A program made the position numbers and the translations under genes. 64,000 nucleotides of DNA from Octopus sinensis. Lineage: Eukaryota. The notes beneath the pieces are model-generated. The model was not told where the DNA came from, made no database searches, and saw only the letters and a list, made by a program, of their open reading frames with translations. The DNA lies in NCBI RefSeq assembly GCF_006345805.1, contig NC_043000.1:135904001-135968000 (forward strand). Direction: 5' to 3'. Positions 72 to 57,035 of this stretch are shown one piece after another. Every line of letters begins with the position of its first letter. Positions within the stretch are counted from its first letter, which is position 1.

Positions 72-127
72 GTCTTACAGCTGTTTCTGTGAAATCCTAG
101 ATACTGGGATATTCCGTCATCGGAGAC
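72..127 (-). ncRNA. Degenerate minimal type I hammerhead ribozyme in a PLE pLTR fragment
   Basis: Minus strand reads GTCT-CCGATGA-(stem II GAATATCC..GGATTTC)-GAAA-CAGCTG-TA-AGAC. Stem I is GTCT/AGAC, stem III is the palindrome CAGCTG, and the core has a U4C change. A (TA)n tract lies nearby. Confidence 0.6.
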
Positions 128-230
128 AAATAAGGAAAATGAGCAGGGTATAGATTGATGAAATGACGACGACGACATAGAGGACAGAAGTAAAGGAATA
201 GGAGATGAAGAAAGAGAACAAAAAAAATAT

Positions 231-272
231 ATGCATATATATATATATATATAATATATATATATATATATG

Positions 273-345
<73 letters not shown>

Positions 346-388
346 TTATATATACATATATGTATATATTTATACATACATATATATA
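231..388. repeat. (TA)n microsatellite
   Basis: Direct reading; source of the YIYIY ORFs. Confidence 0.95.
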
Positions 389-1355
389 AACTGTATATCA
401 CGCTTTATTGCAGACCAAACTTTTGTTGATATTTTGAATATTACACATTGTACAAATGTGAAACTCGGTCCAATGAAAGATACTAGGTTGGTAGGTACGT
501 AGTGAACATTTCAATCGTACTGGTAACCTATATACAAAGTTATGTTGAGTTATGTATTCTGAAGTGCTTTCATCTGTGTCACACTTTATTGAACGTATAC
601 TAAAATGCCGCTGAAACGACGTCTCATAGCTATAGAGAAAACGCGGATTGTTATTGGTCTCGCAGAATTAGCTCAAGAGCTTGGTCGGGATACAAGAACA
701 TTGTGGAAAATCCCATCATCAAACCAAGTCAAGATAAAGGTACGAGAAGTGTTTCCCAGCGTGATATCCGAAAAATAGGTAGACAAGTAAGAAAAGACCT
801 CGATAGTACAAGTACTGCCATATTTGAAAATGCTGGGGCTGCTCCTTTGCCCAGAAGAACCCGGTGTAGGATTCTTAAAGAGACGGCCAGAAGTGTTAAG
901 TGCATCGCTAGACCCATCCTAAGCGCTAACCACAAAGAGAAGCGTATTCATTGGGTACGGAAGTACATGAAGATCAATTTCCAAGATGTCCTCTTCACGG
1001 ATGAGGCCAGAGTTACTCTGTATAACCCCGACGGATGAGCCAAAGTTTGGGTACCTCTTGAAGCCTCTCACCCGCATCGCATTCCACGCCAACAAGAAGC
1101 CAGTGGTATCATGTTTTGGGTGGGAATCATAGGAAATTAACTTGTCGGGTCTTTCCGAGTGCCAGGAGGTGTCAAACGCACCAGCAACTCCTGCACTGCA
1201 TTTCTGGAGGAGCATTTTGCAGCATGGTTAGATGATCTGCCACTCTCACGTCGATGGTGGTTGATTTTTATCCATAACAATGCTCCTTCGCATTCAGCCA
1301 AAGCTACAATTTCATACTTCTCAACTTTGGGAATCACAGGCCAATCACTCATGAC

Positions 1356-1495
1356 AAAGCATGCGGAGTTCTGTTCTTGATTCGACGGTCAAAGCACGCG
1401 GAGTTCTGTTCTTGATTCGACGGTCAAAGCACGCGGAGTTCTGTTCTTGATTTGACGGTCAAAGCACGCGGAGTTCTCTTCTTGATTCGACGGTC
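1356..1495 (+). repeat. Four head-to-tail copies of a 35-bp unit at the LINE 5' junction
   Basis: AAAGCACGCGGAGTTCTGTTCTTGATTCGACGGTC at 1356, 1391, 1426 and 1461, with no spacers. Confidence 0.95.
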
Positions 1496-2075
1496 ATTCG
1501 GAATGCTCACAGCTGCCATATTCCTACCGCTCTATGTCACGCTGGTGAGACCCATATTGGAGTACGGGATTCAAGCCTCTTCTCCTTATCTCCTCAAAGA
1601 CATACAGTATCTCGAAAGAGTCCAGAAGCTGGTTACCCGCATGGTTCTTGGTCTCAAGCATTTGTCTTATGAAGAAAGGCTGAAGACGCTCGACCTTTAT
1701 TCTCTAGAAAAACGACGACGCCGTGGTGATCTCATTCTTGCTCACAACATCATAAGCGGAAGGTGTGACCTCACGAAAGAGCTGTTCTTCACTCCTGCTC
1801 CAGAGCGTCGGCTGCGGGGTCACTCTGAAAAGCCCTATCTGCGACGATTTCATCTCAATCGAAGGAGAGGGGCTTTCTCCGTCCGGGTTGCGGTTCCGTG
1901 GAATAAGCTGCCGGACGAGATAGTGAAGATGCCGACGACCGCTCGGTTCAAGGTCTCCCTTGACCACAAGTGGCCTGAACTCTTTACATGAACACCACCC
2001 TGTACATAACTCCATGTCCCCATACATGGCCTTGCTTTTTGCTTTTTGAGCCAAATAATTAACTAACTAACTAAC
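1356..2075 (+). mobile_element. 5'-truncated CR1-group LINE (ORF2 C-terminus, 3' UTR and (TAAC)n tail)
   Basis: ORF 1452-1991 reads LYVTLVRPILEYG..LERVQK..SYEERLKTLDLYSLEKRRRRGDL, typical of the CR1-group ORF2 C-terminus. It ends in TAACTAACTAAC and the frame is intact, suggesting a recent insertion. Confidence 0.9.
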
Positions 2076-2696
2076 TAGTCTCCCTTTTCCCCTGACCTAA
2101 ACCCTATCGAACAGCTCTGGTTGATCTTGAACAGGAAAGTGCATGAAGGAGGTATCTATTTTTCATTGAAGGATGCCCTGTGGGAAAAGTTCAAAACAGT
2201 TGCTGGTACCATAACATCATCTCAGATTAGTCGGCTAACAGCTTTTGTTAACAAAAGACTGTTTGATGTCACCTCTAAACAAGGAAGTTACTCAGACAAA
2301 TAAAGTACGGCACAAATAGTTTAATTGTGTTTGTTTCATATCTTTTGCTACTATTCTTCGGTAGCGTGTTTAATTATTACAATAAAATAGTAATATAGCG
2401 ATGATACTTTGTTTCATTACCTTAAATTGACGTTTTCGTACACCTGCAATAAAGCGTGACAGTTGAAAGCACTTCAAAATACCTAACTCAACATAACTTT
2501 GTATGTAGCTTATCAATACAATTGAAATGTTCACTGCATACGTACTTGCGAAGGATCTTTCAGTGGACCAAGTTTCACGTTTGTACAATGTTTAACATTG
2601 AAAATATCAACAAAAATTTGGTCTGCAATAAAGCGTGATATACAGTTTATGTATGTAATGTATGTATGCATATATATATATTTATATATATATATT

Positions 2697-2730
<34 letters not shown>

Positions 2731-2745
2731 CATACATATATACAT

Positions 2746-2792
<47 letters not shown>

Positions 2793-2794
<2 letters not shown>

Positions 2795-3288
2795 ATCAAT
2801 AATAATAAAGGGTAAAATTAATTAATTAATTAATTAATAATTAATAATTTCACCAAGTAGTATTCGGTATTTTAAAAAGACCATTATCGGAAAACAATTA
2901 TAATTGTGAGTATAATTATAATTAGTGTTAGGCAAAAAATTTGCTTCACCACACACTGAACTTTAGAAATAGCAGCCAAAGAACCTAGCTATTTGTTCTA
3001 CTGTAAGAAACAACTCCCTGACAATATATACTCAAAAATAATTCACGTAGACAGAGAGGAAAAACAACGAATTTCACTCGGCAGTTGATTAATTGTGGAC
3101 GCGTTTTGGAATTAGATAGATATGAAAAATGCAAGAATCACAATTGTTTTTGAGTATATATTGTCTGGGAGTTGTTTCTTACAGTAGAACAAATAGCTAG
3201 GTTCTTTGGCTACTATTTCTTAAGTTCGGTGTGTTGTGAAGCAAATTTTTTGCCTAACCCTAATTATAATTATACTTATAATTATAAT
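2793..3288. mobile_element. Foldback insertion in (TA)n, probably inverted PLE pLTR ends
   Basis: Inverted arms 2897-3043 and 3142-3288 with a 98-bp spacer. An unpaired tail of about 100 bp on the left starts ATAATCAATAATAATAAA. Confidence 0.65.
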
Positions 3289-3345
3289 ATATATATATAT
3301 TTATATACATATATATACTGTTCTTAACATGTTCTTATTATCAAA

Positions 3346-3402
<57 letters not shown>

Positions 3403-3572
3403 AATATTTTGTGACAACCAGTACCTAACACAACCAAGCTTTTAAATGTTACTTTTGACAATCTTTTTCCAAAAAAGTGAACCGGTCAAGTAAATAAACA
3501 TCTTTTAAAATTGCATTTTCAAACCTCCTTTCATATATAATTCCACTCGTGCGGTACCTTACAAATTCACTT

Positions 3573-3609
<37 letters not shown>

Positions 3610-5094
3610 AATGTATATACACTTACATATGTACGCACATATATACATACACACATATGAACGCACGTGTCTGGTGTAATATTTAATTTTCTCCTAGTTA
3701 AAAAATTCTTTCAGATTTAAAATATTTGAACCAATATAATTGACAAAGCCTGCATATAAATTTGTTTCAGTTTCATTTTGTTGTTATTTAACTCCCAGCC
3801 TAACTCTAACTAAACTGAACTGTGACTATAAACTTTCCTGTAATGACCAATCTCAATCTGTTTATAGCAGGGATTACAGCTTCAATACAATAGGGTAAAA
3901 TCGTAAAAAAATTTGTTTTTTTATTTCTAGAAGTTCTAACGGCCATATATGTTTTGTTATTATAACTAACTTAACTGCACAGAAGAGAACATAAATATCA
4001 ACGTATGTATACCGTATTATATTCTAGTCTTTTTAATGTAATACCATACTTGATGCACGCAGGTTCTACGGTTAACTTTCTAAATTACTGAGTATGTACT
4101 TATATAGGCATTGCATCGTATTCCTCAGTAAGAGAAAGAAATTCTACATGCTGAGTAAAACAAAATTAACTTCATCTATGCCATCCAACTGTAAATTGTA
4201 AAAACAATCTGCTGTAAAAAACAATTGTAAAGTCAATCTGTGCTGCCCAATTATAAAAACGAATAAACTATTTAATTAACTCAAGCACTATGTCCGGAAA
4301 AATGTTTTTATCGCCTGGTCCTAGTTACTTCTGATCACTGTAAGTTATAGACATCAGTAATTTCGTGAAGTTTAGCATTTATACATCGTCTGCATTGTGA
4401 GCTTTCATTCATGTAATTGGAAAATTAAACCATCATTCTCCGTTTTATATATGTTATGGAGTTTGAGTCCATGTGTGTAACTGTTCTATCATTGTATGGT
4501 AAAAGTCTACTAAAACACTGTGTGGTTAAGAAGCTCATCTTACATAGTCTTCAGTTTAGTTTCATTGTGCAACAATTTGGGCAAGTATCTATTATTATAG
4601 TCACGGGTTGACTAATGCCTTGTGAGTTGACGGAAGCCGTGTGGAAGCCTGATATACTTTGGAAGAGTACAAATTTATTATTCTTTAGCAAGAACAGTAT
4701 TAACAATGACCTCAAAGTTTCGGCCAGCCAAATCATCATCGGACTGTTCGATGATGGCTTAGCTTGACACCCTATTGTTTTTATTGATGGGGGTGATGGT
4801 GACGGTGCTGCTGGTGATAATGATGATGATGATGATATTGGTTCTACTACTGCTGCTGCTACTAATACAAAGAAGCCGTAATATTAGTAAATTTATATTT
4901 CTGTTAAATTCATAAAACCACAACAGATTAGTTCAGAAATATAGAAAGAAGGAAAAACCTGTTTTACTTCATTCGTTCCTTGTTTTATCTAGTCCTATCA
5001 TAAGACAGAAAAGGCAAATCTTTAGATGTGCTTGAAGTCACATGCTGAGTGTTCTGACAATAACATCTACTTAATGTGTAAGCTGTAGAGTTAC

Positions 5095-5190
5095 GGTTTT
5101 AGGATTAAGGGTTCAGGTTTAGGGTTTAGGGTTTAGGATTAGGATTAAGGGTTTAGGATTAGGATTAAGGCTTAGGCTAGGATTAAGTGT
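5095..5190 (+). repeat. Degenerate interstitial telomere-like (TTAGGG/TTAGGA) tract
   Basis: GGTTTAGGGTTTAGGGTTTAGGATTAGGATTAAGGG... Confidence 0.7.
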
Positions 5191-5494
5191 TACAATTACG
5201 GTTATAGCGCAGATGCGAAAATTCTGACCTCTTGCAAATAGAGTTTGGATGCATTCCAAGATTTCAATATCGTCAACTTGCTTTCTTTCTTTGATTTCAG
5301 AACTTCTATGACATTTTTCATTCGATACGGAGGCTTCCGCTTGGCTAAAATCTTGAAATGTAATGGTTTCTAACTTTTTTATTATCGATTTCTGCGGAAA
5401 ATTATTGTAATTTTCATCTTTAGCATGCAAAACTAGATCAATATAGAAAATATGAACAAAATCGAACTTGCGAACAACACCATGAAGATCCATA

Positions 5495-10669: not shown

Positions 10670-10741
10670 GCCGTGATTGTCTAGTTGTTGGGACCCCACG
10701 TTGTGGCCGTGGTAACCTATGTTCGAATCCTGGTCACGGCA
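10670..10741 (+). tRNA. tRNA-His(GUG), probably a pseudogene
   Basis: 72 nt, GCCGTGA...TCACGGCA acceptor stem, anticodon arm CCACG-TTGTGGC-CGTGG and GTTCGAATC T-loop. The D-loop GG is changed (AGTTGTTGGG) and the T-stem has mismatches (CTATG vs CCTGG). Confidence 0.85.
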
Positions 10742-13191: not shown

Positions 13192-13342
13192 AAATTAGAG
13201 ATAAAACCACTATTAGGCAAATCATACAATGAAAAACTTAAGCCAATACATAAGATTAATTAATTTATATTATTTTAAATATATATCAAAATTATTAAAA
13301 AAAGATGATTAGTATAACACTACGATTGTTTCATGGCTGTCC
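13192..13342 (-). mobile_element. PLE pLTR-like fragment with the 3' half of a hammerhead
   Basis: Minus strand reads GAAAC-AATC-GTA. The piece is AT-rich and lies between (TA)n tracts. Confidence 0.4.
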
Positions 13343-15266: not shown

Positions 15267-15663
15267 ATAATAAATCTCTGAACGAGATATAAACAGTAAC
15301 CGCTCGACAATGTAAAGTATAATAGCCATCTCAATATGGCTAACCACAAAGGGTGGGTGTTACTGAAGCTTTTAGCCCCAGGTGATCATCGTCTCTAGCT
15401 GGCTTTAGGCACACTATCTGTGCCCTTATGGTATTTGCAAAGGGAGGTCATCCCTTTCTCGTAAGCCTAAGTGATACCTCGAAACTGCGGTCCGTGCGTA
15501 TCACTTAGGCTTACGAGAAAGGGATGACCTCCCTTTGCAAATACCATAAGAGCACAGATAGTGTGCCTAAAGCCAGCTAGAGACGATGATCTCCTGGGGC
15601 TAAAAGCTTCAGTAACACCCACCCTTTGTGGTTAGCCATATTGAGATGGTTAGTATACTTTAT
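15267..15663. mobile_element. Hairpin insertion (inverted PLE ends) with 11-bp TSD
   Basis: Arms 15313-15477 and 15498-15662 (165 bp, about 4 mismatches). The 20-nt spacer holds CGAAAC-TGCG-GTC and there is a 46-bp unpaired tail. TSD TTTATTTAGTA at 15256-15266 and 15664-15674. Confidence 0.8.
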
Positions 15664-17829: not shown

Positions 17830-18719
17830 CGAGGTCTGATCAATAAGTAACTGGACGGTTGCCATAGTAACGTCGCTAAGGTACGCAGAGTAAAACTGCT
17901 TGGCACAGATTGATTTTGAACTCTGCTGTACATGCGCAATAAGTTTTAACGTTCTAGTTTACTTCCGCTGTTTACAGCAGTGCTTGGAAGGAAGGAGTGT
18001 AGCGTGTGAGCGTTGCATTGACCATGACAGAGAGAGTTCTCATGGTGATACCTGCTCAGAGGCCGACGCAAAGTTGCAGAAAGTGTACGGAGAGGAGTGT
18101 ATGAACAGCACACAAGTGTACGAGTGGTTCAGACGCTCCAGCATGGCGGAAAAATTCTCGATAGTGACGAACGTTCTGGGAGACCCGCGACAAGCAGAAC
18201 TGAGAAAAACATCGCAAATGTGCATGCAGCCGTGAGGGGAAATCGGCGAATCACCATCCGTGAATTATCAAAGGATGTGCAGATTAGTTATGCTTCAGTT
18301 CAGTCCATTATTACTGAAGATTTGGGTACGAGACGCGTGTCTGCCAAGTTGGTACCAAAATTTCTTTCAGCTGACCAAAAGGACACTGGGGTTTCAGTTG
18401 CATAAGATTTTGATTGTGTCGAGAACGATGAAATATTTTTGGAAACTTTGCGTAGGCCTCTGAGCAGGTATTGCCAAAATTTTAGCAAAACTTGATGCAG
18501 ATTTTCTGCTCAACTTACTCTGTCATTGTGAATGCGTCGATCACACGCTACACACGTTCCTTCCAAGCACTGCTGTTAATGGCGGAAGTAAGCTAGAACG
18601 TTAAAACTTAGTGCGCATGCACAGCAGAGCTCAAGGTCAATCTGTGCCTTTGGCTTCACTCTATGTGCTTTAGCTTCGTTACTATGGTAACAGTCCGGAT
18701 AGTTATTGATCAGATCACA
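17830..18719 (+). mobile_element. Internally deleted mariner element
   Basis: About 190-bp TIRs (CGAGGTCTGATCAATAA..) with TA flanks. The ORF piece RSGRPATS..ITIRELS..LGTRRVSAKLVPKFLS covers the mariner HTH region and WVPH-like motif. The catalytic domain is absent. Confidence 0.9.
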
Positions 18720-19577
18720 TATGGTCAACGCTATTGAACTGTTGGAATCAAATCCTTATGTGCTCACATTCGTTTACTCAGTGGTCGAGAAGATAGCGCT
18801 TCAATAAAAAATTAAACTCTATCAGAATGTAGCAAAAATAAAGTTAAAGTTAAGCATGATGTGAGTGAACCAATTGAACATATCAATATTATTGAAAATT
18901 ACCTTGAGTTGTTTACTCTGACACCTGGTAGAACATTTGCACAGCAACTCGATCCGAAACAACAAGTTCACGAACAGAAATCGACGGACGCTGTGTCACG
19001 CTACTCTACTTTCATTAAACGACCTATTGAAAGGTTTGGTTAAACTCAAATATTTTGCCTTATATCAATTGCACTTAGAAGAATGAAATTTCGAAAAATT
19101 GTTCCACTATTGTACGTTTGTAGATTTTATTAGTTTTATTTGCGTGGATGATTAATACTTTAGCAAAGTAATACTTTATTACAAATAATTTCTCAGATAG
19201 GCACAGGGTCAGATGTAGTAGTGGAGTTAGCTGATTAAATCGGCACCATTACCTACTACTTACTTAATCGAACAAAGAAACATGAATTGAACCACTTACT
19301 GTTACTACTACTACAAATATATTTGCAAACGACTATCTCTTCAGTCACCCAGTAGAATCCAATGTAGATTTTAATGAACTAAAAACTGATTTAAATTGAG
19401 TTTTGTCATGCAATATTTACACCTCAGGATAATTTTGTTAGTTGTGGAGCTGAAAATTCTATAGGAGTTACAAAGCTGGTCTTAGTTTGTTGCGTAATAT
19501 TTTCGAAAAATAATTAACAAGAAACTTGAGGGTTCTGAATAAGCCGCACAATATTTTAAACTCTAAAAGTAATACGC

Positions 19578-19578
19578 A

Positions 19579-19643
<65 letters not shown>

Positions 19644-19695
19644 ACACACACACGCACACGCACGCGCACACATATACACACAGACACAGACACAT
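19578..19695. repeat. (CA)n microsatellite
   Basis: Direct reading. Confidence 0.95.
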
Positions 19696-19734
19696 GTAGA
19701 AAACAACAAACCTTTTGATTTTATATTATATATA

Positions 19735-19950
19735 CGTGGGGTACTGAAAAGTGCCTGGATTTGGGTAAAAGAAAATACAGGAGGATCAATTAATTATGAT
19801 TTTGTTCAACATATTTCCATCTAAGATTCATATACTTATTGCAACGGTTCTTCCATTTTTCTAAGCCCCGTAAAAGAACTCGGTAGTTTAGGCCTCCAAC
19901 TTAGCCTTTCACGATACCCTCAAAGCCAGCAACTTTTCAGCGCACCCTAG
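19735..19950 (-). mobile_element. Mariner-derived MITE
   Basis: TIRs CGTGGGGTACTGAAAAGTGCCTGG and CCAGCAACTTTTCAGCGCACCCTAG with TA flanks. The internal minus strand reads KWKNRCNKYMNLRWKYVE, like the mariner C-terminus. Confidence 0.75.
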
Positions 19951-20107
19951 TATAGGTTTTTCGACACAGCCCGTTTAAATAAATTCAACTAGGTTTATTG
20001 TGAGTCCAATTAGGCGGTGATTAATGAGGGATCAGATAAAAAGAAGGAAGTGTGGCAATGTTGCGAACCACTCATTTGTAAAGCTGTGCTCTCTGAAACA
20101 AATGGTA

Positions 20108-20524
20108 AGCTGAAAGCAGTTTTGGCACAAACTTGGCAGACATGCGTCTCATACCCAAATCTTCAGTGATAATGGACTGAACTGAACCGTAACTAATCTG
20201 CACATCCTCTGATAACTCACGGATGGCAACTCGAGGCCTTCTTATCACAGCTGCACGTATATCTGCGATATTTTTCTCAGTTCTGCTGGTCGCAGGTCTC
20301 CCAGAATGTTCGTCACTATCGACAATTTTTCCACCTTGCTGGAACGTCTGACCCATTCTACACTTGTGTGCGGTTCATACACTCCTCTCCAGGCACTTTC
20401 TGCAACTTTGCATCGGTCTCTTGAACAGCAGAGTTCAATATCAATCTGCACCAAATGGATTCACTCCGCGTGCTTTAACTTCGTTACTATACCAACAGCC
20501 CAGTTACTTATTCATCAACCACGT
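20108..20524 (-). mobile_element. Second fragment of the 17.8-kb mariner family
   Basis: ORF 20072-20356 reads SGRPATSRTEKNIAD..LGMRRMSAKFVPKLLS. A left-TIR remnant lies at about 20420-20524. Confidence 0.9.
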
Positions 20525-22479: not shown

Positions 22480-24070
22480 TTCAAATTTGTTTCATTGCTA
22501 TATTATTGTTGCAGCATGACCCTGGAAACATGAATAACAATTCGGAATTGATTAGGTAATTTTCATTTGTAATTAACCATGGGTACTGAGTACAGTTAAA
22601 TGACTCATCTGCATTTGTATTTTCGAAATTTGGTTGTGATGAAAAGCTAGTCAACCTGAACAGCATTATATCTATCTAGCCACTGCTTTATATCAGAGAT
22701 AAAATTCATTTGACTATACAAATATACAGAACCAACCGCAATCTTTCAAATAAAATCTCTCTCTTTAGGAAATCTCTCCTGAATACTGTGTGCGTATTTG
22801 CATATCCAGAATTCTATTGTTTCTAATCCTTATTCATGAAGGATATTTGTGTAGAGATTGGTTACGTTAAAACTAACAAGGATCGCTTTTTATCTATTCT
22901 CTCTGCAACATCGTTGCAAAACAACTAAGTTTTCGATAACAGATATTACCCACAAATACAAGGCGCGGCAATGCGAACGGAAGCAACTCCGAAGTTTGTA
23001 ACAGTCATAATGCGATACCTGGAAGAAAAATCTATATTCTTTCTAGAATTACGTATGATCAACATTTCCAATGGTATTTGATAGAGAACTGGAAACATTC
23101 TCGTATAACTGCTTCGTATTTGGAACTTTCTAATAATTTTCTGGACTAATAATTAAAGAAAATAAAACTGTTACAACTGATTTCTACTGCAAGAACACAA
23201 ATACACATCTATATTTAGATTTTAGATCTTGCCACTCTTCCACACAAAAAGTATATATAGTAAGACGTGTATACTCAATAACTACAGATACAAAAAGATG
23301 ACAGAAATGACAGGTAAAACTAAATATCTTCCTTCACAAATAGAAATACTGTAAAAGGACCTAATAAATAAACTGTTGGAAGAAACACCCGCACTGAAGG
23401 TGAAAACAAAAATACAAATTAAATATTTAATTTGTAGTCACCCATAATCCTAGGAACTATAACATCCAGTATTCGGCCAAACAATACTTTCTAATTCTAC
23501 ATGAATGATCGAAACTCCGACAAGACATTAAAAGATCTCAAATTGTCAACAGGTGAAAACCACCAAATCTCAAGAGTCCTAACAAAGTCGAAACTCACAA
23601 CAGAGAAAGAAATAATGCAGTTAATAAACTATGGAGAGCCTCGAAACGTCAAACTCTCTTTTTACGAAGCATCAAGTTAATACATTCCTTGTGCACTTCC
23701 TCTTGTCTGTTAATTTTATTATTTGTTTAAGTATTGTATTGGCATCCTTTCTGTCTCGGGAGACAATGGAGTTGCGCATGTTTTTTTTGTTTTTTTTTTT
23801 GTAGTCTAGTCCGGCTTTTATATTTCATGTCCTGATACATTTCCTGCTGTGGCTGTGTAGTCCTATCCTGGACAAACACTCCCTCGTTTATTTGATCGCT
23901 AAATGCACAAGTTTTTTTATTCTCTCTCTGTTTATTTCTTCGTGTGCCTTTCTGTTGAAGAGCGTAGGTTCGAAACGTCAAACACTTTCTCACCTTCCCG
24001 AACGTCAAACTAATGCACCTGCTTCTTGCTTATACACCTGTCTTCGTCTTTTGTTTTCTGTAAATTTCAA
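22480..24070 (+). mobile_element. Highly decayed Penelope-like retroelement (RT remnants and pLTR)
   Basis: 22932-23027 translates to FDNRYYPQIQGAAMRTEATPKFVTVIMRYLEE (PLE RT motif B). 23431 gives FVVTHNPRN and about 23560 gives KPPNL. The pLTR has a hammerhead near 23950. The left boundary is approximate. Confidence 0.75.
23944..23985 (+). ncRNA. Variant minimal hammerhead ribozyme motif
   Basis: TTT-CTGTTGA-A-GAGC-GTAG-GTTC-GAAA-CG-TC-AAA, with an A6U core change and an ACGT palindromic stem III. Confidence 0.55.
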
Positions 24071-24509
24071 CTATATATGTGTGTGTGTCTATATGTATAC
24101 ACAGACACACACACACACGCATATTTATATATGCGTATGGTGTGTTTCTGAGTTGGTGTGTATGTATTGACTAAAAACATAATATTTTATTCAATAGATA
24201 ATGTTGTAATCATATTGGATTGCTGTGAGGAAAAATGTTGACAAATGTAAGGAAGAGTAGGCTACTGTATCCTTAAAATGTAAAGATTTGATTAGATCAA
24301 TAAAGATTATAGAAAAGTTGCTGGTGCAAGAATTTATTACAATGGTAATATTTTTGATAATAGTTTTGATAATATGAAAAAAGCTGTTAATGATTATAAG
24401 GATAATTGTGTTAACAATGGTTAATGATTCTGATAACAATGATGATACGACAGTCATAACAATGATGATAGTGATGGTAATGATGTTTATAGCAACACCG
24501 TTACCACAG

Positions 24510-26806: not shown

Positions 26807-26854
26807 TAAAAAGTCAAGACAGAAAATGCTAAAATAATTTTATAAAAAACATTT

Positions 26855-26890
26855 CAGTACTGGTTTCAGTCACGCAGACTTTTTCAACTG
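26855..26890 (-). ncRNA. Minimal hammerhead ribozyme, U3-A8 core variant
   Basis: Minus strand reads CAG-TTGAAAA-AGTC-TGCGT-GACT-GAAA-CCAG-TA-CTG. It sits in an AT-rich insert next to (TA)n. Confidence 0.7.
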
Positions 26891-33155: not shown

Positions 33156-33806
33156 GGATCTTTTCCTTTTGAACGGCAGACAATTTTTAGTTAACTAAAC
33201 ACTTTAAAACTTCGTATACTGGTAGAATGTGTCAAAATTAAACATTTTTTTTCTCTTGGCTTTCTTGAGAAAATTGTAATTTGTTTGTTTAACGTAGTTT
33301 AATTTTTCGAATTTTAACCAATCCTATGCTCTCTTTTGAGCTAAAATCATTTGCTGCGTCTAAAACTGAGACAACATCCTGTAACTAACCCTAAACCTCC
33401 CCCTAACTCTAACCCTAATCCTAAATTTCTTTTCTTAATTGTTAAATTAATTTAATTGTTACGCGTGTAAAAAAAAAACTAAAGCAATGGAATTAAATTA
33501 ATTTAACAATTAAGAAAAAAATTAGGGTTAGGGTTAGGGTTAGGGGAGAGGTTTAGGGTTAGTTACAGGATGTTGTCTCAGTTTTAGACGCAGCAAATGA
33601 TTTTAGTTGAATGAAGGTAATCGATTGGTTATAATTGCCGAAATGCTCGGATTTTCAGACGAAATATCTTACAAACTATAGAATTTTCTCAATAAAACCA
33701 AGAGAAAATGATGTTTTATAAACATATTCTACCAGCATACGAAGTTTAAAAGTGTTTAGTTAACTAGAAATTGTGTTGACATCTGCCGTTCAAAAGGAAA
33801 AGATCC
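33156..33806. mobile_element. Foldback non-autonomous DNA transposon, GG..CC ends, 8-bp TSD (Merlin- or MULE-like)
   Basis: Ends GGATCTTTTCCTTTTGAACGGCAGA and TCTGCCGTTCAAAAGGAAAAGATCC, and the two halves are inverted copies. TSD TTGCAATG at 33148-33155 and 33807-33814. Internal (TAACCC)/(GGGTTA) repeats. Confidence 0.85.
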
Positions 33807-37790: not shown

Positions 37791-37818
37791 TTCATAACAT
37801 TTTCATAGCATTTTTTCC

Positions 37819-37896
37819 GGTGGCCGGATAACTGAAGAGATGGCGGCGTGGATTTCCACCCCGGCATCCGAAACTTGGAGTCTTATCATGGCTACC
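37819..37896 (+). ncRNA. Type I hammerhead ribozyme, canonical core
   Basis: GGTGGCC-G-GATAA-CTGAAGA-GATG..CATC-C-GAAA-CTTGGAG-TC-TTATC-AT-GGCTACC. Stem I is extended with an internal loop. The GUC triplet predicts a cut after 37882. Confidence 0.85.
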
Positions 37897-39751
37897 GAAT
37901 AACTGTCACATATTACGTGTACAGATATATATATATATATTGAAAGAATTTTTTTACCAAAATAAATGAAGGTGCAGAACGTGAGAACAATTCTACAGAT
38001 TAACTCACCACTTTCATCTATTTTGGAAAACAAGTGCTTTGCAAATCATGTTGCATTACATTAATATGTACCAAGATTAAGGCAAGGGTTTCTCAGATTT
38101 GGTAGTGCAACAAACAAAACACCTTGCAGTATTTAGTTACAATTTCTTACAATCTGAGTCCAAATTCAAACTGTGAACATTTTGCTTTCATCCATATATG
38201 TCAGTAAAATGAATTACAAGTTAAGTACCGAAGTTGATTTAAACGACTATCCTCTCCCACAAAATTGATGACTGTGTGCCAATATTGGAAACTAGTATAT
38301 ATACTGATAAAATGGTAAATATCAACAAACAGAAATTCGCTTAATATTTAATATACAAATGATTTTTTTCTTATGCAATTGTTTAGATGAATAAAAGATT
38401 TCATACCTAAGTACATACATACATACATGCATGCGTGTGCGTGTGTGTGTGTGTGGACTTGGTAATAACACCGAACAGAACATCGGAATCTACAAGGCTC
38501 AGAGTATATCATATACTACTTTCGCCACTTTCAATGTAATATGATGTGAAAGCCAATATGTAAAATCTTTTCATATGCTGTCCAGTGAAAAATAACGTTA
38601 TGTGTCTGGCAGCAATTTCCCTTCTAGGCAATTAGAATTAAATAACTTGGTCACTGGCCAGAAAGTAAGGTACACAGCAAGATATATATCAATTACTCTT
38701 GGATGAAGAGGTTTCATTCGTAATATATAGATTGGTTTTCTGTATTTCAATTAGCATATATTATCGATTTTATTTTACAAATCTAGTAGCAGAGGAGTAT
38801 AGTCAAGTGAAGTTCAATGTATTACTAGTAGTTCTGTTATTAACCGCAAAATATTGAACAACAATATCAGATCTAGAAAGATTTGAACTTAGAATCTAGA
38901 GGTATGAAACTAAATATCATAAAGCTTTATAAAGCTTTATAATTCCTGAAAAGTTGAAATCTGCATGTCATTTGTATTAGTAATTTTTACATTGACACTA
39001 ACATAATAGTAATTTTTAGATACATTAAAATATCACAATGATAGATTATGGATTAAGATTTCGGAGGAAACTTGAATGAATTCCAACCTACTAATTTGTG
39101 TCAAAATTCCTTCAAACAAGCTGGGAAATAGTCTACTTAGAGTATTTGATATGCTAAATGGCATTTGAGATCATAGACAACATGACAAGCATATGCTGTC
39201 AAATATCATTGAAATACTCCGAAGCTACTTGTGCATAGTTCTGTTGGTTGTGTCTCGAAGTCCTATTACATCGGTGAAAAGCATGTGTTATAAACAGACA
39301 TCGCCTAGAGGGTGGCGATGTTTTTCGCTAACAAAAAATAACAGCGATCAGATATTTACTTTCGAATTTGTCAAGGAGACATTAAGAATGGCTACGTTGT
39401 TTAGACTCTCACTGTTCTGCGAGCATCACATAAATTATTATCTCTTTCCTAGACTTTAGCATGCATAAGAAAAATAATTTGTTTGTTGATTCATATAAAC
39501 AACTTATTCTCTTGTTAGCGTCTTCCGTCAGTAGCCGTAGCTTTAATTGAAGAGATACATAATGAGATCGAAACACTGAAGTGTCTCGAGGTCCTCTTAG
39601 ACTGGTGAATCACGTGTGTTTTGGACACACATTGTTTAAAGATGTCTAAAGGTGTTCTCCGTTGACGAAAACCAACAATCAGACAATCACATCTGAATCT
39701 ACCGCAACGTATTTAGAATGAATAGATGCATTAATATTATTCTATTTCGCC

Positions 39752-43874: not shown

Positions 43875-44578
43875 ATTACACAACACACACAAATATATAT
43901 GTCCATACATACAGACAGACAGATATGCACATGTGCACACCACACGCACACACATACACACACACACACACACACAAATATAGATATATGAAATATTATA
44001 TTCTATTATATCATCCAATTATTCAATAAATCATTGAATAGCCCATTACATATTCTGTTCAACAATTGTTGGCTAATTTAAAATCTAGGAAAATTTCTGC
44101 TGGTAGAATTAAATGTTAATTAGTGTTAATTGCTTGATTAAAGTCTGTGCAGCTGAATTTATACTCCGGATTTCTCTATCTTGAGCCCTGTAGCTTAACT
44201 AGTCAGATGAGCAATGTTGTGTTAATACAAGCAACCAGTGATAAAATATTCAATTAAATGAACCAAGGATACCCTGCAGCTAATTAACCACAACATAAAC
44301 TATTTCTAATACAATACTCACTGAAAAAATAGAGAAGCTTTCTTTAAAAACCGTCTTGCATGAGGTTTTTAATTAGTGTACCTCAAATCTGATCTAGCAA
44401 ATATATCATACGTAGATATTAATTGGTTAAATACTAAAATGCATTCCACAGATGCAATAATTCGGATAGATCATGATAATGTTTCGTGGAGGACTATATT
44501 GTTTACTCCAGTATGCACTGGTTTATTACAAAGGATGCTGTATACTACAAAGTATGCACTGGTTTATTACAAAGGATG

Positions 44579-45008
44579 TGTATGTTTGTATGTGTGTGCT
44601 TATCTTTTCCTGGAGTTTAACAGCGAGGATTGTAGATATCCGCAAGAAAACTGAGCCAAGTCTCTCATTATTTTTGTCCAGTATTAAATTAAAGTCAATA
44701 CATTGTCCTTGTCACTTTAGCTGTTAGAAATACATATGAAAAGGACCAACGATTCATCCTTTGCAATCCTACAACCAATGACACTATTGTTTATCATTTG
44801 CAAAATGGAAATCTAACATTAATATTTGAATCCCTCCCTCTATTCAAATAACTGAGTTACTAGCTTTCTCAAACAGTCATGATCTTAAATAACAACTGTG
44901 TCAAAACTCTAAATAAATTTGATAGGTTTCGGCCAGTATAGGCCCAGGCGGTGTCTAACTCAATAGCACCACCTAGTGAAGTCTTTTAGTCATATATGGG
45001 GCACCATA
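44579..45008 (-). repeat. 430-bp inverted duplicate of 47423-47853
   Basis: ORFs 44473-44727(+) and 47704-47892(-) share the same C-terminal peptide. The copy is flanked by repeats of TATGCACTGGTTTATTACAAA(G/C)GATG. Confidence 0.9.
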
Positions 45009-45270
45009 TGCACTGGTTTATTACAAACGATGCTGTCTTTCCATACTGAGATTTTACACTGGTGTTGAATGCCATGCAGTTGCTGATATGGTTATGTTGT
45101 ATATTGTCTAAGTTCTACGAGTTTGTGCTTATGCATTTGGGCGTTTGTATTGAAGTACTGTGCCTGAGAAAGATAGGAGTTTTGATATTGTTGCTAGTTT
45201 TATAACATCTTTGCTTTTTACATTGAGTCAGAGGGTAAGATTAATAATTTTAAGATAATGCTATTGAATA

Positions 45271-45414
45271 CAATTGCAGCGTGGAAGGTGTTTGTAAGCC
45301 ATTTAAGAAACACACAAAAGCCCTTCGATTCATTTCAACATTTAAGTTTAATTTGTCAAAATATTTTCGTCGCTTTAAAACCGCGACCTGTTCACTGACA
45401 AAAATCCGTGCTGA
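45271..45414 (-). mobile_element. 144-bp PLE pLTR-derived insertion with 10-bp TSD
   Basis: TSD CTATTGAATA at 45261-45270 and 45415-45424; contains a hammerhead. Confidence 0.8.
45352..45402 (-). ncRNA. Minimal hammerhead ribozyme, G3-C8 core variant
   Basis: Minus strand reads TTTGTCA-GTGAACA-G-GTCGC-GGTTTTAAA-GCGAC-GAAA-ATAT-TT-TGACAAA. It has a 7-bp stem I, a 5-bp stem II and an AATATT palindromic stem III. Confidence 0.75.
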
Positions 45415-46447
45415 CTATTGAATAGTATCTGAGTAAATGTAGATATCCCAAGACAATTGGTCTTCTGGTAGAAGAGATTGGGAAGGTGGAAATTCCTTGT
45501 GCTGTTTTGTCCTATTTCCCAAGTGGCTGCTGAGTGTTTTGCTCATAAGTGAAGAAGTAACAGTTGAATGCTGTTGATTGCAATTAGACAGTGTAATTTA
45601 AGTTTTCTTGCTATTTTTTTCAGAATTGAAAGTAATGAAGTGGTTGAATTTTTGGTCTTTGATTTTATGTTACCTACTTACAGAACATATTGAATAATGT
45701 AATTCTGGATATAATATAATAGCAAAAAGTAATAGACACAATCAAAATGCTAATCAAGCAATGAAAAGTAGATTTTCCTGCTGTAACAGGATCTGAAATT
45801 TTAGAAATCAATTTTTATTAACTTTGTTGTTTTCTAGAAGAGGTACTTGACAACATTTACTAACTCATTTTGAAATATAATTAGTTTCCGTGATTTCTGA
45901 TTACAATATCACCATTTTAAAGTCCATTAATATAAATTACATGAACTGCATCTAAATCAGTATTATAACAATGGCTTTGATATTAACGTCGACGTGAGGC
46001 AGAGTTATATCTTGTCTTCATTGTTATTCTCAATTAACTTGAATGGTAGAATGATGGATCTTTTCGCTTTGTGAAGGTCAGCCTATACACACGTTTCAGA
46101 AATTTTAATTTTATAGATGAAAATTTATAGATGCTCTGATAGCAACTGAAGAAAAGAAACAGACAATGATTGACAGTCTAGTGAATGATGGCCTCCAACT
46201 TTCAGTAAAATCTATATACGTCTGTAGGGTCTCAAGTATATGCTACTGTCAAAACATACAAGGGACAGCGGATAAGGAATATTTCTGCAGGAGAACAATT
46301 ATTTGACGAAATATAGATATTCGCTTTAGCAACTATTTTTTCTAGGAGTTTGAAATAATCAAGATTGATACATAAGACTATTACTAATACAAATCATATT
46401 CTACAATGGTGCAGCCTAAATATATTTGTAAAAGTTTCATGTTGTCA

Positions 46448-46612
46448 ATAATAGAAATATTAAAATTACTAAGTCTCTCTAGAGGAGATTACGGCAGCGT
46501 TACTGGATATTAATAGTTATCGCCATACTAATATGGCAGTCTATAAATATAAGACTAAAGTTTTAGTCTTATATTTATAGACTGCCATATTAGTATGGCG
46601 ATAACTATTAAT
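46448..46612. mobile_element. Hairpin insertion: perfect 51-bp inverted arms plus tail, 12-13-bp TSD
   Basis: Arms 46509-46559 and 46562-46612 with a 2-nt centre and a 61-bp tail starting ATAATAGAAAT. TSD TTTCATGTTGTCA at 46435-46447 and 46612-46624. Confidence 0.85.
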
Positions 46613-46869
46613 TTCATGTTGTCATTTAAGCAAAATTCATCCCTAATTAGGTAAACCTATAGCGCAGAGTTGAAATGTGATGGAAAAATAATTACGAATA
46701 AATGGTTGCATTTTCTGGATATATATTCTTCAGTTATAGACAGATAATTTAACCATTTATGTTAAGTGTAAGATAAAAGAAAGAAATAATATGAGCGAGG
46801 GACTGAGTGGGAAAGTATGAGAGAGCCCACACTTTATTGTACGCCACCTTTAGGCGAGAGCTAATTGAT

Positions 46870-47520
46870 GTCAGATTCTGAGAACTTTCCGGTCTATAGA
46901 TGCCTACACCATCATTCTTCTCTACTCTACTTTTGCCCGACCCCATCTTGAGTACTGTTGCCCACTGAGGTCATCACATACGAAGCAACTCATTATGAAA
47001 GTAGAAGCACTCCAGAAGTCCATAACAAGAAAGATAGACGGTATAAGAGGCATTGATTACTGGGGTCGACTAAAAAAACTCAATTTCTACTCTCTCCAAC
47101 ATCACCGGGAGCGCTACATCATTTGTGTTATCTAGAAAATATTCCATTAATATTGCACAACTGATGTTAGCATCAATTTTAAAATCCACCCAAGACTTGG
47201 CCCACTACAAAAATCGAACTCCGTACACATAACAACATTACGTCACAATTACTTTACCTCAACCGGTCCAGCTCTCTTAAATACCATACCAAAATACGTC
47301 AAAACGGAAACGGATCCCATGAAATTCGAATGTTTACTGGACAAATTTCTTCAAAAAATCCCGGACCAACCTCTTACAACCGGATATGTCTCCAACAATA
47401 ATAACTCTTTGCAAGAGTGGGCTATGGTGCCCCATATATGACTAAAAGACTTCACCAGGTGGTGCTATTCAGTTAGACATGGCCTGGGCCTATACTGAAC
47501 GAAACCTATCAAATTTATTT
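46870..47520 (+). mobile_element. CR1-group LINE 3' fragment, decayed
   Basis: Plus-strand translation gives LLYSTFARPHLEYCCPL..VEALQKSITRKIDG..YWGRLKKLNFYSLQHHRERYII. The 3' UTR ends near CGAAACCTATCAAATT. Confidence 0.85.
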
Positions 47521-48450
47521 AGAGTTTTGACACAGTTGTTATTTAAGATCATGACTGTTTGAGAAAGCTAGTCACTCAGTTATTTGAATAGAGAGAGTGA
47601 TTCAAATATTAATGTTAGATTTCCATTTTGCAAAGGATGAACAATAGAGTCATTGGTTGTAGGATTGCAAAGGATCAATCATTGGTCCTCTTCATATGCA
47701 TTTCTAACAGCTAAAGTGACAAGGACAATGTATTGACTTTAATTTAATACTGGACAAAAATAATGAGAGACTCGGTTCAGTTTTCTTGCGGATATCTACA
47801 ATCTTCGCTGTTAAACGCCAGGAAAAGATACGCACACACATACAAACACAAACACGCAAAACCACACACATATACCGATAAATGTAAAACAAAAGGCCAC
47901 TGAACGCATATCATAGAAATTAAATATTAGTATTAGCAGTTTATGACCTGCATTAATTAAAATTTCAGTCCGATCAATCAAATGCTGTAGTGCAAAGCTG
48001 TAGTGCAGCCACGAGTATCAAATGAGGTTGACCTTTAGATGATGCGTTCATTCCTGTTAGTCAGTTCAAGCTAAGTAGCAGGGTCGGTAGCTGATTAAAT
48101 GCTAGTTGTTGTCGTGGTTCAATCATATGACCCAAACTAAGATTATTAATTTTAATTAATAAGCAAAAGTCTCCTTTAGAACACGTGGTTACCTCACTAC
48201 TTAGCTCTTCAGCATCCAAATGATCAGATGTACATATCTGGAATCCTTTGAGCAATGTTCATCTATGTCACAAAGTGTTTTTATATATATCAACACTGGG
48301 TTTCGGTACATTTCCCATTTACCAGATTCCACTCATAAAATATTGATCAATCCATAGGAGAAGATACCTGCTCACTGCGCTGAGTTGTAGGATCAAACTT
48401 GAAAAACTATTATGAAAAAAAGAACTTTTTAAACGCACGACCAAGTAATA

Positions 48451-55123: not shown

Positions 55124-55152
55124 CTAGCAAAGAAACCCGGCGTTGCTCGGCA
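55124..55152 (-). mobile_element. Isolated Helitron 3' terminus
   Basis: Minus strand reads CCGAGCAACGCCGGG-TTTCTTTG-CTAG|T, the same hairpin as 48820-48847. Confidence 0.7.
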
Positions 55153-55177
55153 TTAAAATGGCATAGATGTTTTTTAT

Positions 55178-55462
55178 TGTTTTAGTTATTTCGGTCATGT
55201 GACTGCGACCATGGTGGATCACACCCTTTAGTCGAAGAAATCGACTCCAGGATTTATTCTTTGTAAGCCTAGTCCATATTCCGTCGGTGTGCATTGTCAA
55301 ACGGCTAAGTTACGGGGACGTAAACACAGCAACATCGGTAGTCAAGCGATCTTGGTGGTACAAACATACACACACAAACAAATATGCACATATATACGAC
55401 AGTTTTCTTTCAGTTTCCATGTACGAGATCCACTCACAAGGCTTTGGTGGATCTGAGGCTAC
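55178..55462 (-). mobile_element. SINE family C
   Basis: Collinear reverse-complement match. Confidence 0.8.
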
Positions 55463-55649
55463 AGAATATATATATATATGTGTGTGTGTGTGTGTATTAT
55501 ACAGGAGTAAGCATATAAATGTGAAACAAGGTGGACAAAAAGAGTACTCAAATACCAGAGTTAGAGTAATATACTTTATTAAAAGCAGCAGAAATATCAC
55601 AAAAACTGTTACTCGAGGTTACACGTTCCCAATTTCAGTCTGGTCAGAT

Positions 55650-56200
55650 TAAGAACATGAATAGAAGCGATGTCAGTCAGAAGCAAACGTCCATTTGCTG
55701 TTCTCACTGGAGCTACTGAAGAAGATTTTGGGCGATATACCTCCTTAACATAAGAGTACAAACCTTTGGCATCATTTCTATCAGCTGCGTCTTGTGCCCT
55801 TTTTGCTCTATCATTCCACCATTCGTGTTTAATTTTCCTTAGAGCAGTTTGCACTTCCTTTTCAGCTTTCTGTAAGCTTCGTTTGAGTTGCGGTTAAAGA
55901 ACTGAGAAAGGAGTGTGTTGCCTAAGTTTTGTTTTTTCTAAAAGTAGATCATGAATTTCTGCTGATCTATCTGAGAACCAGTCATTGGACTTATGTGATT
56001 TAAATCCCACTGACGAACTTGCAGCCTGAAATACTTTTGTTTTGAAATCTTCTCATAGATTGTTTGGGTCAAGATTGATACTTCCTATAGCTTCGCGGAA
56101 TATTGCAAGTTGCTTGATAATTTAAAGTTTGCAACATTTAACTTTTTGAGTACTTTAGGGACAGACTGTCCATTTTTAGGCATTATCGAAAAGTACGATA
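55650..56200 (-). mobile_element. RTE (BovB-like) LINE linker fragment
   Basis: ORF 55609-55854 reads LRKIKHEWWNDRA..AADRNDAKGLYSYVKEVYRPKSSSVAPVRTANGRLLLTD. Confidence 0.8.
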
Positions 56201-56446
56201 AGGGATTTACAAATGCAAATAAAAACTATATATAAATATAAAAAAAGTAAAAGATATGCAATAAATATAAATATGTTTATAAAAGTAAAAGTATACATAT
56301 ATAAACATATAAAAAATATATAAAAAGGGTACGATGTGTGAATAAGAATTTAATAAGAATTAAATATAAATAATGTATATAAATATAAAGAAAAGTAAAG
56401 GATATGCAATTGAAGGATATAAAATAATATATATGTAAATGTAAAA

Positions 56447-56494
<48 letters not shown>

Positions 56495-56529
56495 TATATA
56501 TATATAATATATATATATACATATTTACA

Positions 56530-56732
56530 GATATTTTGTTGGATGGCCGTTGACTGTTCAGGAGTTCCCCCGTCCTTTGACAGGTCTTATTTTTCATCCC
56601 GCAGGGTGTCCAACAACACTCTCCTCACCAAGCAAGCCTGGTGTGGTTACTAGTTTAGTCGCCGCCGACCTGACCATGCGACACGTTGCACTGGATTACA
56701 TGTTACCAGTAGCACCACTCAGGAGTAACCTC
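56530..56732 (-). mobile_element. Probable RTE 5' UTR fragment
   Basis: GC-richer island in the same orientation as, and upstream of, the 55.7-kb RTE piece. It shares GCATGG..GGCGACTAAA with the 33.1-kb RTE 5' end. Confidence 0.55.
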
Positions 56733-56760
56733 ACACACACACACATACATATATATCATG

Positions 56761-56831
<71 letters not shown>

Positions 56832-56990
56832 GTTTAAATATTTGTTGTGCAAGATTTTTTGTGTGAAGTCGTGTGTTGAAACAGATATTGTTATATTTCG
56901 GAATGGTCATTTTGCCAGTTTAGCCAATAAAAACACACGCACTATATATTTGGTGTTATTTATTTTTTACATTAATCTTAATCTTATTTC

Positions 56991-57035
56991 GGCCAGAGTT
57001 CTTTCGTCACACTCCTGTGACCGCATCAGTGGTCC
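56991..57035 (-). ncRNA. Degenerate hammerhead motif in a pLTR-like fragment
   Basis: Minus strand reads CCA-CTGATGC-G-GTCAC-AGGAGT-GTGAC-GAAA-GAAC-TC-TGG (A9C). Confidence 0.55.

What the first reader, a model, noticed from the sequence alone, without database searches (positions are those of the whole stretch)
72..57035. Dispersed panel of minimal hammerhead ribozymes with a covarying 3:8 core pair (C-G, U-A, G-C)
Seen: at least six dissimilar short inserts fold as type I hammerheads, at 72-127(-), 23944-23985(+), 26855-26890(-), 37819-37896(+, with an inverted copy), 45352-45402(-) and 56991-57035(-). Half motifs occur at about 10.48, 13.33, 15.48 and 59.70 kb. The cores read CCGATGA, CTGTTGA, TTGAAAA, CTGAAGA, GTGAACA and CTGATGC, so positions 3 and 8 always stay Watson-Crick. 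Stem III is often only a palindrome (CAGCTG, ACGT, AATATT). Established: Penelope-like pLTRs carry minimal hammerheads that cleave as dimers, and C3-G8 is a tertiary pair. Inference: many PLE lineages here kept catalytically constrained non-canonical cores that a CUGANGA search would miss, at about one per 10 kb.
Basis: partly seen in the sequence, partly recalled or inferred. Interest (0 to 1): 0.75.

Follow-up and report, generated by a model that had tools for sequence, protein, structure and literature searches.

The report
Jumping-gene hammerheads with swapped core pairs
The motifs are leftover tail ends of seven abundant Penelope-type jumping-gene families, each carrying a small hammerhead-shaped RNA whose central base pair occurs in all four Watson-Crick forms (two of which I did not find in print as natural), which likely reflects selection for slow self-cutting in the parent elements, although cutting is untested.

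Summary
All six motifs lie at the stated places and each belongs to a different high-copy repeat family. The odd cores are family-wide, not decay: C3-G8 (four families), U3-A8 (41 of 42 copies), G3-C8 (66 of 69). The '59.70 kb half motif' is a whole, decayed motif of a seventh family with A3-U8 (A3 and U8 each in 38 of 41), completing all four Watson-Crick pairs in one window. Each family was traced to Penelope-like reverse-transcriptase or GIY-YIG coding sequence upstream. Across 16 families, 14 keep 3:8 paired (permutation p about 1e-5, not corrected for kinship). Three families also change an 'invariant' base (C4, U6, C9); the C9 family also lacks a palindromic stem III, which weakens 'catalytically constrained' for it. 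Genome-wide density is nearer one per 25-50 kb than one per 10 kb. Penelope minimal hammerheads and U3-A8 are published; G3-C8 I found only as a lab rescue mutant, A3-U8 not at all, but a key paper was unreadable. This scan already noted G3-C8 (same genome) and A3-U8 (other genomes). Cleavage is untested.

The parts
72..127 (-). F1 minimal hammerhead motif, core CCGAUGA (C3-G8, C4), 8-nt palindromic stem III; decayed stem II; within a Penelope-like 3' end at 1-225
   Evidence: C-G in 42 of 46 copies; position 4 C 24, U 21, with G5->A in 7: CpG decay pattern; GIY-YIG-type fragments upstream in L336, L337 and RT fragments in L338
10468..10530 (-). Broken copy of a further C3-G8 hammerhead family (internal deletion removes most of the core strand and the 5' arm of stem II)
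13318..13342 (-). 5'-truncated 3' half of a hammerhead motif (GAAA, near-palindrome, UA, stem I arm); whole family motif not recovered
   Evidence: one other copy covers it, L026/L333
15476..15496 (+). 5'-truncated 3' half of a C3-G8 hammerhead family, at the centre of a 165-bp fold-back (15313-15662)
   Evidence: whole motifs in L175, L250
23948..23982 (+). F2 minimal hammerhead motif, core CUGUUGA+A (C3-G8, U6); Penelope-like 3' end 23894-24078
   Evidence: U6 in 65 of 68; position 7 U43/A12/C7/G6; endonuclease fragments about 520-590 nt upstream in L032, L313, L050
26855..26890 (-). F3 minimal hammerhead motif, core UUGAAAA (U3-A8); palindrome broken in this copy; Penelope-like 3' end 26808-27019
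   Evidence: U-A in 41 of 42; endonuclease fragments upstream in L100, L107
37730..37790 (-). Inverted 5'-truncated copy of F4 holding a whole motif
37826..37887 (+). F4 hammerhead motif, canonical CUGAAGA core, extra nucleotide before G12; Penelope-like 3' end 37807-37931
   Evidence: C-G in 47 of 49; RT and endonuclease fragments about 1-2 kb upstream in L222, L213
45352..45402 (-). F5 minimal hammerhead motif, core GUGAACA+G (G3-C8), 7-bp stem I, 5-bp stem II; matches the family form; element 45266-45413
   Evidence: G-C in 66 of 69; GIY-YIG 1.4-1.7 kb upstream in L327, L328, L329, L331
56991..57035 (-). F6 hammerhead-like motif, core CUGAUGC+G (C3-G8, C9), non-palindromic stem III; pLTR fragment 56852-57211
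   Evidence: full-length element in L166; 29 of 30 endonuclease-seeded loci carry it downstream, C9 in 28 of 29
59688..59722 (-). F7 whole but decayed minimal hammerhead motif, core AUGAUUA (A3-U8), 2-bp stem II, 6-nt palindromic stem III
   Evidence: (A3 38 of 41, U8 38 of 41)
60522..61044 (-). Broken Penelope-like linker and GIY-YIG endonuclease coding fragments upstream of F7 (SINE-like inserts lie between)
   Evidence: L341; same arrangement in L348, L350, L351, L352

Best explanation
The motifs are 5'-truncated tail ends of seven Penelope-like retrotransposon families whose family sequences fold like minimal type I hammerheads with positions 3 and 8 paired in all four Watson-Crick forms, likely because the parent elements were selected to keep a slow self-cutting fold that would need a second copy or the element's protein; the solitary copies here are likely inert. 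Shown: family membership, family-wide cores, link to RT/GIY-YIG coding sequence, covariation across families. Inferred: the parent RNA holds two pLTR motifs (as in L166, 4.4 kb apart on one strand) whose palindromic stems III swap strands to form a dimer, or the ORF protein folds the motif, and cutting trims the read-through transcript; 3:8 swaps are tolerated because the pair positions the 2'-OH of residue 8 rather than a specific base (established knowledge of the hammerhead, recalled). F6 (C9, non-palindromic stem III) is likely the weakest or a dead ribozyme.
For: Each motif has hundreds to thousands of first-look candidates in G000 (1096, 3642, 1766, 1981, 879, 213, 158). Cores are fixed within families. 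16 families of >=3 copies pass the descriptor at consensus level, 14 with a Watson-Crick 3:8 pair (8 C-G, 4 U-A, 1 G-C, 1 A-U); the reversed data give 1 family, unpaired; permutation p 1e-5, and 11 of 11 families with an otherwise canonical core are paired, p 1.1e-4. Related elements carry flipped pairs: F5 (G-C) and F6 (C-G) share 58% RT and 49% endonuclease identity; F3 (U-A) and F7 (A-U) endonuclease fragments are 33-43% identical, E to 1e-19. In F2 position 7, the free position of the hammerhead, takes all four bases while 3, 4, 5, 6, 8, 9 stay fixed. Penelope architecture: full-length element with pLTRs and inverted 5' copy (L166), inverted pairs in 33 of 165 loci, ends at (TA)n. Literature: minimal dimeric hammerheads and U3-A8 in Penelope pLTRs (PMC4209133); C3G/G8C partly rescues a Penelope hammerhead (PMC11167929).
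Against: No cleavage data. Two of 16 families have an unpaired 3:8 (U-U and A-C, both with a second core change and few copies) and 5 of 20 strict hits in the unbiased sample are unpaired. The permutation ignores kinship; there may be only three or four independent swaps. The 2-bp stem II rule that admits F7 was added after F7 was seen, and F4 and the main F1 form do not pass the descriptor. Copies were mostly picked by similarity to the window copy. F6 spread recently (copies up to 100% like consensus; open frames to 1044 aa) with C9 and a stem III that does not self-pair; F5's palindrome is very weak (-0.2 kcal/mol) and F2's weak (-1.7). In the one reconstituted Penelope element, hammerhead mutants did not affect insertion and no RNA reads began or ended at the cut site.
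Confidence: 0.72

Rival explanations
1. The fold is kept for a non-catalytic job (binding the element's protein, setting the start of reverse transcription or translation); the 3:8 pair is conserved as structure while chemistry has relaxed, so most variant families do not cut.
For: Family-wide changes at positions called invariant (C9 in 65 of 70, U6 in 65 of 68, C4); F6 stem III cannot self-pair yet the family is young and abundant; cleavage was dispensable for insertion in vitro and not seen in RNA reads for PAc; Naiad elements spread without canonical hammerheads (PMC8557442).
Against: The 3:8 pair forms in the catalytically active conformation (recalled), and G5, G12-A13-A14-A15.1, U16.1 and a non-G17 are kept in all seven families; natural U3-A8, U4C and A6C variants cut in other systems (PMC3088659).
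Confidence: 0.22
2. The motifs are chance look-alikes or copy-specific decay of canonical cores.
For: The window alone gives 4 relaxed hits and 1 or more of 100 shuffles reach 4; several window copies carry stem-breaking changes (F1, F3, F7).
Against: Cores are fixed in 41-70 copies per family; 20 versus 0 and 0.6 strict hits per Mb against controls; each family sits behind Penelope coding sequence, where such motifs are expected.
Confidence: 0.02

Closest known systems
Minimal type I hammerheads (min-HHR) of metazoan Penelope-like elements, Cervera and de la Pena 2014 (PMC4209133; read parts 1-2 of 4 of the text and parts 1-2 of 3 of supplement 2)
   Same: Type I layout, tiny palindromic stem III, inserted base after position 9 in most families, place in the pLTR behind the ORF, mostly solitary or inverted copies, many families per genome, U3-A8 covariation.
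   Different: In their 56-row alignment I saw only C3-G8, two U3-A8 and one U3.G8 row; no G3-C8, A3-U8, C4, U6 or C9 row. No cephalopod row (word search).
Natural hammerhead core variants, Perreault et al. 2011 (PMC3088659; passages and section 8)
   Same: U3-A8 covariation, U4C, a position-6 change (A6C), 2-bp stem II, mismatch at 10.1-11.1.
   Different: The text read names no natural G3-C8, A3-U8, U6 or C9; Figure 5 and supplements were not seen.
PAc Poseidon hammerhead, PMC11167929 (passages)
   Same: Penelope pLTR hammerhead; C3G/G8C double mutant partly restores cleavage, the lab equivalent of F5.
   Different: G3-C8 there is engineered; here it is the natural form of a family with hundreds of near-identical copies.
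Lunse, Weinberg and Breaker 2017, Penelope-associated hammerhead variants that cleave as dimers (not held; seen only as a reference title and through the review PMC6765202, section 11 part 2)
   Same: Short palindromic stem III, dimer cleavage, Penelope association.
   Different: Unknown: whether it lists 3:8 or position 6/9 variants could not be checked.
Animal non-LTR retrozymes (bioRxiv 10.64898/2026.07.22.740005; part 1 of 5)
   Same: Type I hammerheads derived from Penelope pLTRs.
   Different: Retrozymes are non-coding tandem units; these seven families are dispersed ends of coding elements.

Membership tests
Penelope minimal type I hammerhead | Type I order: stem I - core - stem II - GAAA - stem III - UH - stem I | tested here: met
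   All seven family forms; stem I 3-7 bp, stem II 2-11 bp
Penelope minimal type I hammerhead | Core C3 U4 G5 A6 N7 G8 A9 (or U3-A8) | tested here: not met
   Met by F3 (U3-A8) and F4 only; F5 G3-C8, F7 A3-U8, F1 C4, F2 U6, F6 C9 depart. Hence filed as variants, not plain members
Penelope minimal type I hammerhead | Watson-Crick pair between positions 3 and 8 | tested here: met
   7 of 7 window families; 14 of 16 families
Penelope minimal type I hammerhead | Palindromic minimal stem III | tested here: inconclusive
   Met in F1, F2, F3, F5, F7; F4 self-pairs around one mismatch; F6 does not self-pair
Penelope minimal type I hammerhead | G10.1-C11.1 pair directly before G12 | tested here: inconclusive
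   Met in F2, F5, F6, F7; A-U in F3; F1 and F4 have an extra or mismatched base before G12
Penelope minimal type I hammerhead | Located in the pLTR / 3' UTR of a Penelope-like ORF | tested here: met
   F6; F5, F2, F3; F4; F1, F7; two to five loci each except F6 (29)
Penelope minimal type I hammerhead | Self-cleavage as a dimer or with protein help | not testable with these tools
   Needs a bench assay
EN+ Penelope-like elements | RT followed by a C-terminal GIY-YIG endonuclease | tested here: met
   L166 and L330: Pfam GIY-YIG E 6.8e-6 above cut-off for F5, 0.069 for F6; RVT_1 weak (0.003-0.014, below cut-off); for F1-F4 and F7 only broken fragments, recognised by motif and by similarity to these
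EN+ Penelope-like elements | pLTRs, inverted 5'-truncated copy, insertion in microsatellites | tested here: met
   L166; 33 of 165 loci with inverted pairs; (TA)n at 3' ends
Neptune/Nematis clades of Penelope-like elements | CX2-5CxxC zinc-finger-like linker before the endonuclease; clade placement by RT tree | tested here: inconclusive
   Motif present in F5 and F6 proteins (definition); no tree with reference elements was built
Non-LTR retrozymes | Non-coding tandem units each with a hammerhead | tested here: not met
   12 of 165 loci (some overlapping) have two motifs on one strand; families trace to coding elements

The most novel reading that the evidence does not exclude
Penelope-like elements in this lineage have explored the whole tolerated sequence space of the hammerhead core in nature: all four Watson-Crick 3:8 pairs, with flips between related elements (C-G to G-C, U-A to A-U), plus U6 and C9 cores thought near-dead, and all of them cut in vivo because the element's protein or a partner copy rescues the fold. 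Standard descriptors would then miss a large class of natural ribozymes.
Probability: 0.25. Interest if true: 0.65.

Novelty: new variant of a known kind. Interest (0 to 1): 0.45.

Why it matters
It gives natural, high-copy examples of hammerhead cores known only from mutagenesis (G3-C8) or not found in my searches (A3-U8, U6, C9), each tied to a Penelope lineage. That makes an open question testable: whether Penelope hammerheads must cut at all. A ready panel exists: F5 and F6 are sister elements, one with a flipped but paired core, the other with a broken position 9 and stem III. It also shows that CUGANGA-based censuses undercount these motifs. The basic phenomenon is published, and this scan has already recorded G3-C8 and A3-U8, so the gain is moderate.

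Tried and rejected
Rfam scan at E<=10: microsatellite and fold-back noise plus one tRNA, no hammerhead among the 150 rows shown. First loose descriptor on the window gave many low-complexity hits and was replaced. An abundant SINE-like family scored as 'A3-G8' (11 hits; 18); it has no stem III and was rejected as a false positive, after which an inner stem III of >=2 nt was required. Endonuclease tree: the F5 row was out of frame and 7 of 9 inner branches were open, so the tree was not used; only pairwise identities are cited. An RT fragment downstream of an F5 copy (L322/L217) proved to be a separate insertion. An apparent fixed 5' end of F5 was an artefact of short copies; longer ones run 1.4-1.7 kb up to the endonuclease. 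Expression: no RNA holder listed; four runs guessed to be RNA are contigs only and show no start or end sites, so nothing on transcription or cleavage. PDB sequence search with the F5 RT fragment found nothing. Papers not held: Lunse 2017 and Przybilski and Hammann 2007. 'Not in print' rests on searches and the passages named; figures, supplement file 1 of PMC4209133 (not searched), its part 3, and subscription papers were not seen and may hold G3-C8 or A3-U8 examples. The random genome sample stopped at 1.0 Mb, so rarer families are missed.
Full report
Setting. The window is 35% G+C, rich in microsatellites and repeats, and lies in contig C4 of a 2.72-Gb animal genome, G000. I label the six motifs F1-F6 in window order and the 59.70 kb motif F7.

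Observation. All six motifs are present as stated. Rfam lists no hammerhead among the 150 of 224 rows shown. With positions 3 and 8 left free, a strict descriptor finds 20 hits in an unbiased 1.0 Mb of the genome against 0 in the reversed sequence and 0.6 per shuffle; a relaxed one finds 42 against 6 and 6.0 (an earlier run on 884 kb including the window gave 7 against 0 and 0). The window alone is weak evidence: 4 relaxed hits, shuffle mean 0.38, maximum 4 of 100 shuffles.

Families. Each motif belongs to its own repeat family (158-3642 first-look candidates, 40 scored each, 25-30 loci taken for F1-F6). Tallies over distinct copies in all fetched DNA: F1 C-G in 42 of 46, position 4 C in 24 and U in 21 with G5->A in 7, the pattern of a decaying CpG, so C4 is likely ancestral; F2 C-G in 65 of 68, U6 in 65, position 7 U43/A12/C7/G6; F3 U-A in 41 of 42; F4 C-G in 47 of 49; F5 G-C in 66 of 69; F6 C-G in 67 of 70, C9 in 65. 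F7 is not a half motif: 41 aligned copies give a 5-bp stem I, core AUGAUUA (A3 38 of 41, U8 38 of 41, exact core 27 of 41), a 2-bp G-C stem II, GAAA, a 6-nt palindrome and UC. Most copies were chosen by likeness to the window copy; for F6 a sample seeded by the endonuclease protein agrees (29 of 30 loci carry the motif downstream, C9 in 28 of 29). A9 occurs in F6 at three places, one being the most diverged copy, so C9 is probably derived. The motifs at 10.48, 13.33 and 15.48 kb are a deleted copy and two 5'-truncated copies of further families.

Link to Penelope-like elements. L166 holds a near full-length element: inverted 5' copy, F6 pLTR, RT and GIY-YIG frames, second F6 pLTR. Walking upstream from F5 through a long microsatellite-rich UTR reaches a GIY-YIG endonuclease (Pfam E 6.8e-6) and RT; 4 of the 6 loci show endonuclease then G3-C8 motif 1.4-1.7 kb on, one has a decayed motif and one ends before it. 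Endonuclease or RT fragments lie upstream on the same strand for F2 (L032, L313, L050), F3 (L100, L107), F4 (L222, L213), F1 (L336, L337, L338) and F7 (window 60522-61044, L348, L350-L352). Most copies are short and show no coding sequence within reach. By pairwise identity the proteins fall in four groups: F5+F6 (RT 58%, endonuclease 49%), F3+F7 (33-43%), F1+F4 (37% over 62 residues) and F2. The two purine-3 pairs thus each have a relative with the same two bases the other way round.

Covariation. Clustering all descriptor hits in 2.01 Mb of fetched DNA (overlapping loci and window included) leaves 16 families of at least three copies whose majority sequence passes: 8 C-G, 4 U-A, 1 G-C, 1 A-U, 1 U-U, 1 A-C; the two unpaired ones have a second core change and 3-5 copies, like the single family found in the reversed control. 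Permutation gives p about 1e-5; the 11 families with canonical U4, G5, A6, A9 are all paired, p 1.1e-4. Caveats: kinship is not corrected; the 2-bp stem II rule was added after seeing F7; F4 and the main F1 form fail this descriptor; 5 of 20 strict single hits are unpaired, of which one has a C-G sister copy.

Density. The seven families give 28 motif-spanning copies per Mb (F2 13, F4 9, F5 3, F3 2, F1 1, F6 and F7 0) and the descriptors 20-42 hits per Mb, so about one recognisable motif per 25-50 kb, some 50,000-100,000 by extrapolation. This window is richer than average.

Mechanism. Minimal Penelope hammerheads cut weakly and as dimers through the palindromic stem III (PMC4209133; review PMC6765202); the PAc hammerhead needed the element's protein, was killed by C3G or G8C, partly rescued by the double mutant, and was dispensable for insertion in vitro (PMC11167929 passages). 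Predicted stem III self-duplex energies are -11.1 (F1), -9.7 (F4), -8.3 (F3, F7), -1.7 (F2), -0.2 (F5) and +1.4 kcal/mol (F6). Of 165 family loci, 120 hold one whole motif, 33 an inverted pair and 12 two on one strand; no window copy has a same-strand partner. I infer that selection acted on the RNA of the parent elements, where two pLTR motifs or the ORF protein can complete the fold, and that the scattered copies are relics. F6 is the strongest argument that cutting can be lost without harm.

Comparison and novelty. U3-A8 is published for Penelope and other hammerheads, as are U4C, A6C and 2-bp stems II. In the 56-row alignment of PMC4209133 I saw no G3-C8, A3-U8, C4, U6 or C9 row. Searches (listings only, plus passages of PMC3884650, PMC8490949, PMC6155905, PMC11014351 and PMC8557442) showed G3-C8 only as an engineered variant and no natural A3-U8, U6 or C9. 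Lunse et al. 2017, the largest survey, could not be read, so novelty is provisional. Earlier notes of this scan report G3-C8 in this genome and elsewhere and A3-U8 in other genomes; I found F7 before that look-up; a word search for C9 returned nothing. These notes are unchecked and are not counted as support.

Verdict. Real feature, new variants of a known kind; interest 0.45.

Noticed in passing
window 72-127, 37826-37887; L255, L029, L300, L144 families: Several families (F1, F4 and at least three others) have an extra or mismatched base between stem II and G12; F1 and F4 share a protein group, so this may be a lineage trait. One published alignment row shows a similar extra A.
   Followed up: partly
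L300 family: A three-copy family combines U3-A8 with U6, a second U6 lineage besides F2.
   Followed up: no
L317:1500-1530 and L325 upstream of F5: A branch-point-like motif, pyrimidine tract and AG lie 14 nt before stem I of F5, with a GT donor-like motif about 330 nt upstream in some copies: a possible pLTR intron ending at the hammerhead, as in Drosophila Penelope. An open frame of about 70 codons also runs through the F5 motif.
   Followed up: partly
L170/L252 family: A small family reads U3.U8 with weak stems; either a chance match or a real unpaired exception.
   Followed up: no
window 382-2654: 196-nt terminal inverted repeats around a Tc1/mariner-like transposase fragment (604-1035; Pfam HTH_Tnp_Tc3_2 E 0.007) with a LINE-like fragment inside.
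   Followed up: partly
window 44577-47854 and 18122-20358: Long inverted repeats (432 nt, 95%; 256 nt, 86%), probably DNA transposon ends; F5 is inserted inside the first.
   Followed up: no
window 10670-10741 (+): tRNA-His(GUG) call by ARAGORN and Rfam; may be a gene or a tRNA-derived repeat head.
   Followed up: no
window 33365-33582 and 5098-5191: Fold-back and tandem stretches built from TTAGGG-like repeats.
   Followed up: no
L073:1600-2250: A tandem array of about ten 64-nt units made of head-to-head F5 5' halves.
   Followed up: no
L178:3900-6200: Three F1 copies in a 785-nt tandem unit that also holds a SINE-like repeat; looks like local duplication rather than a retrozyme.
   Followed up: partly
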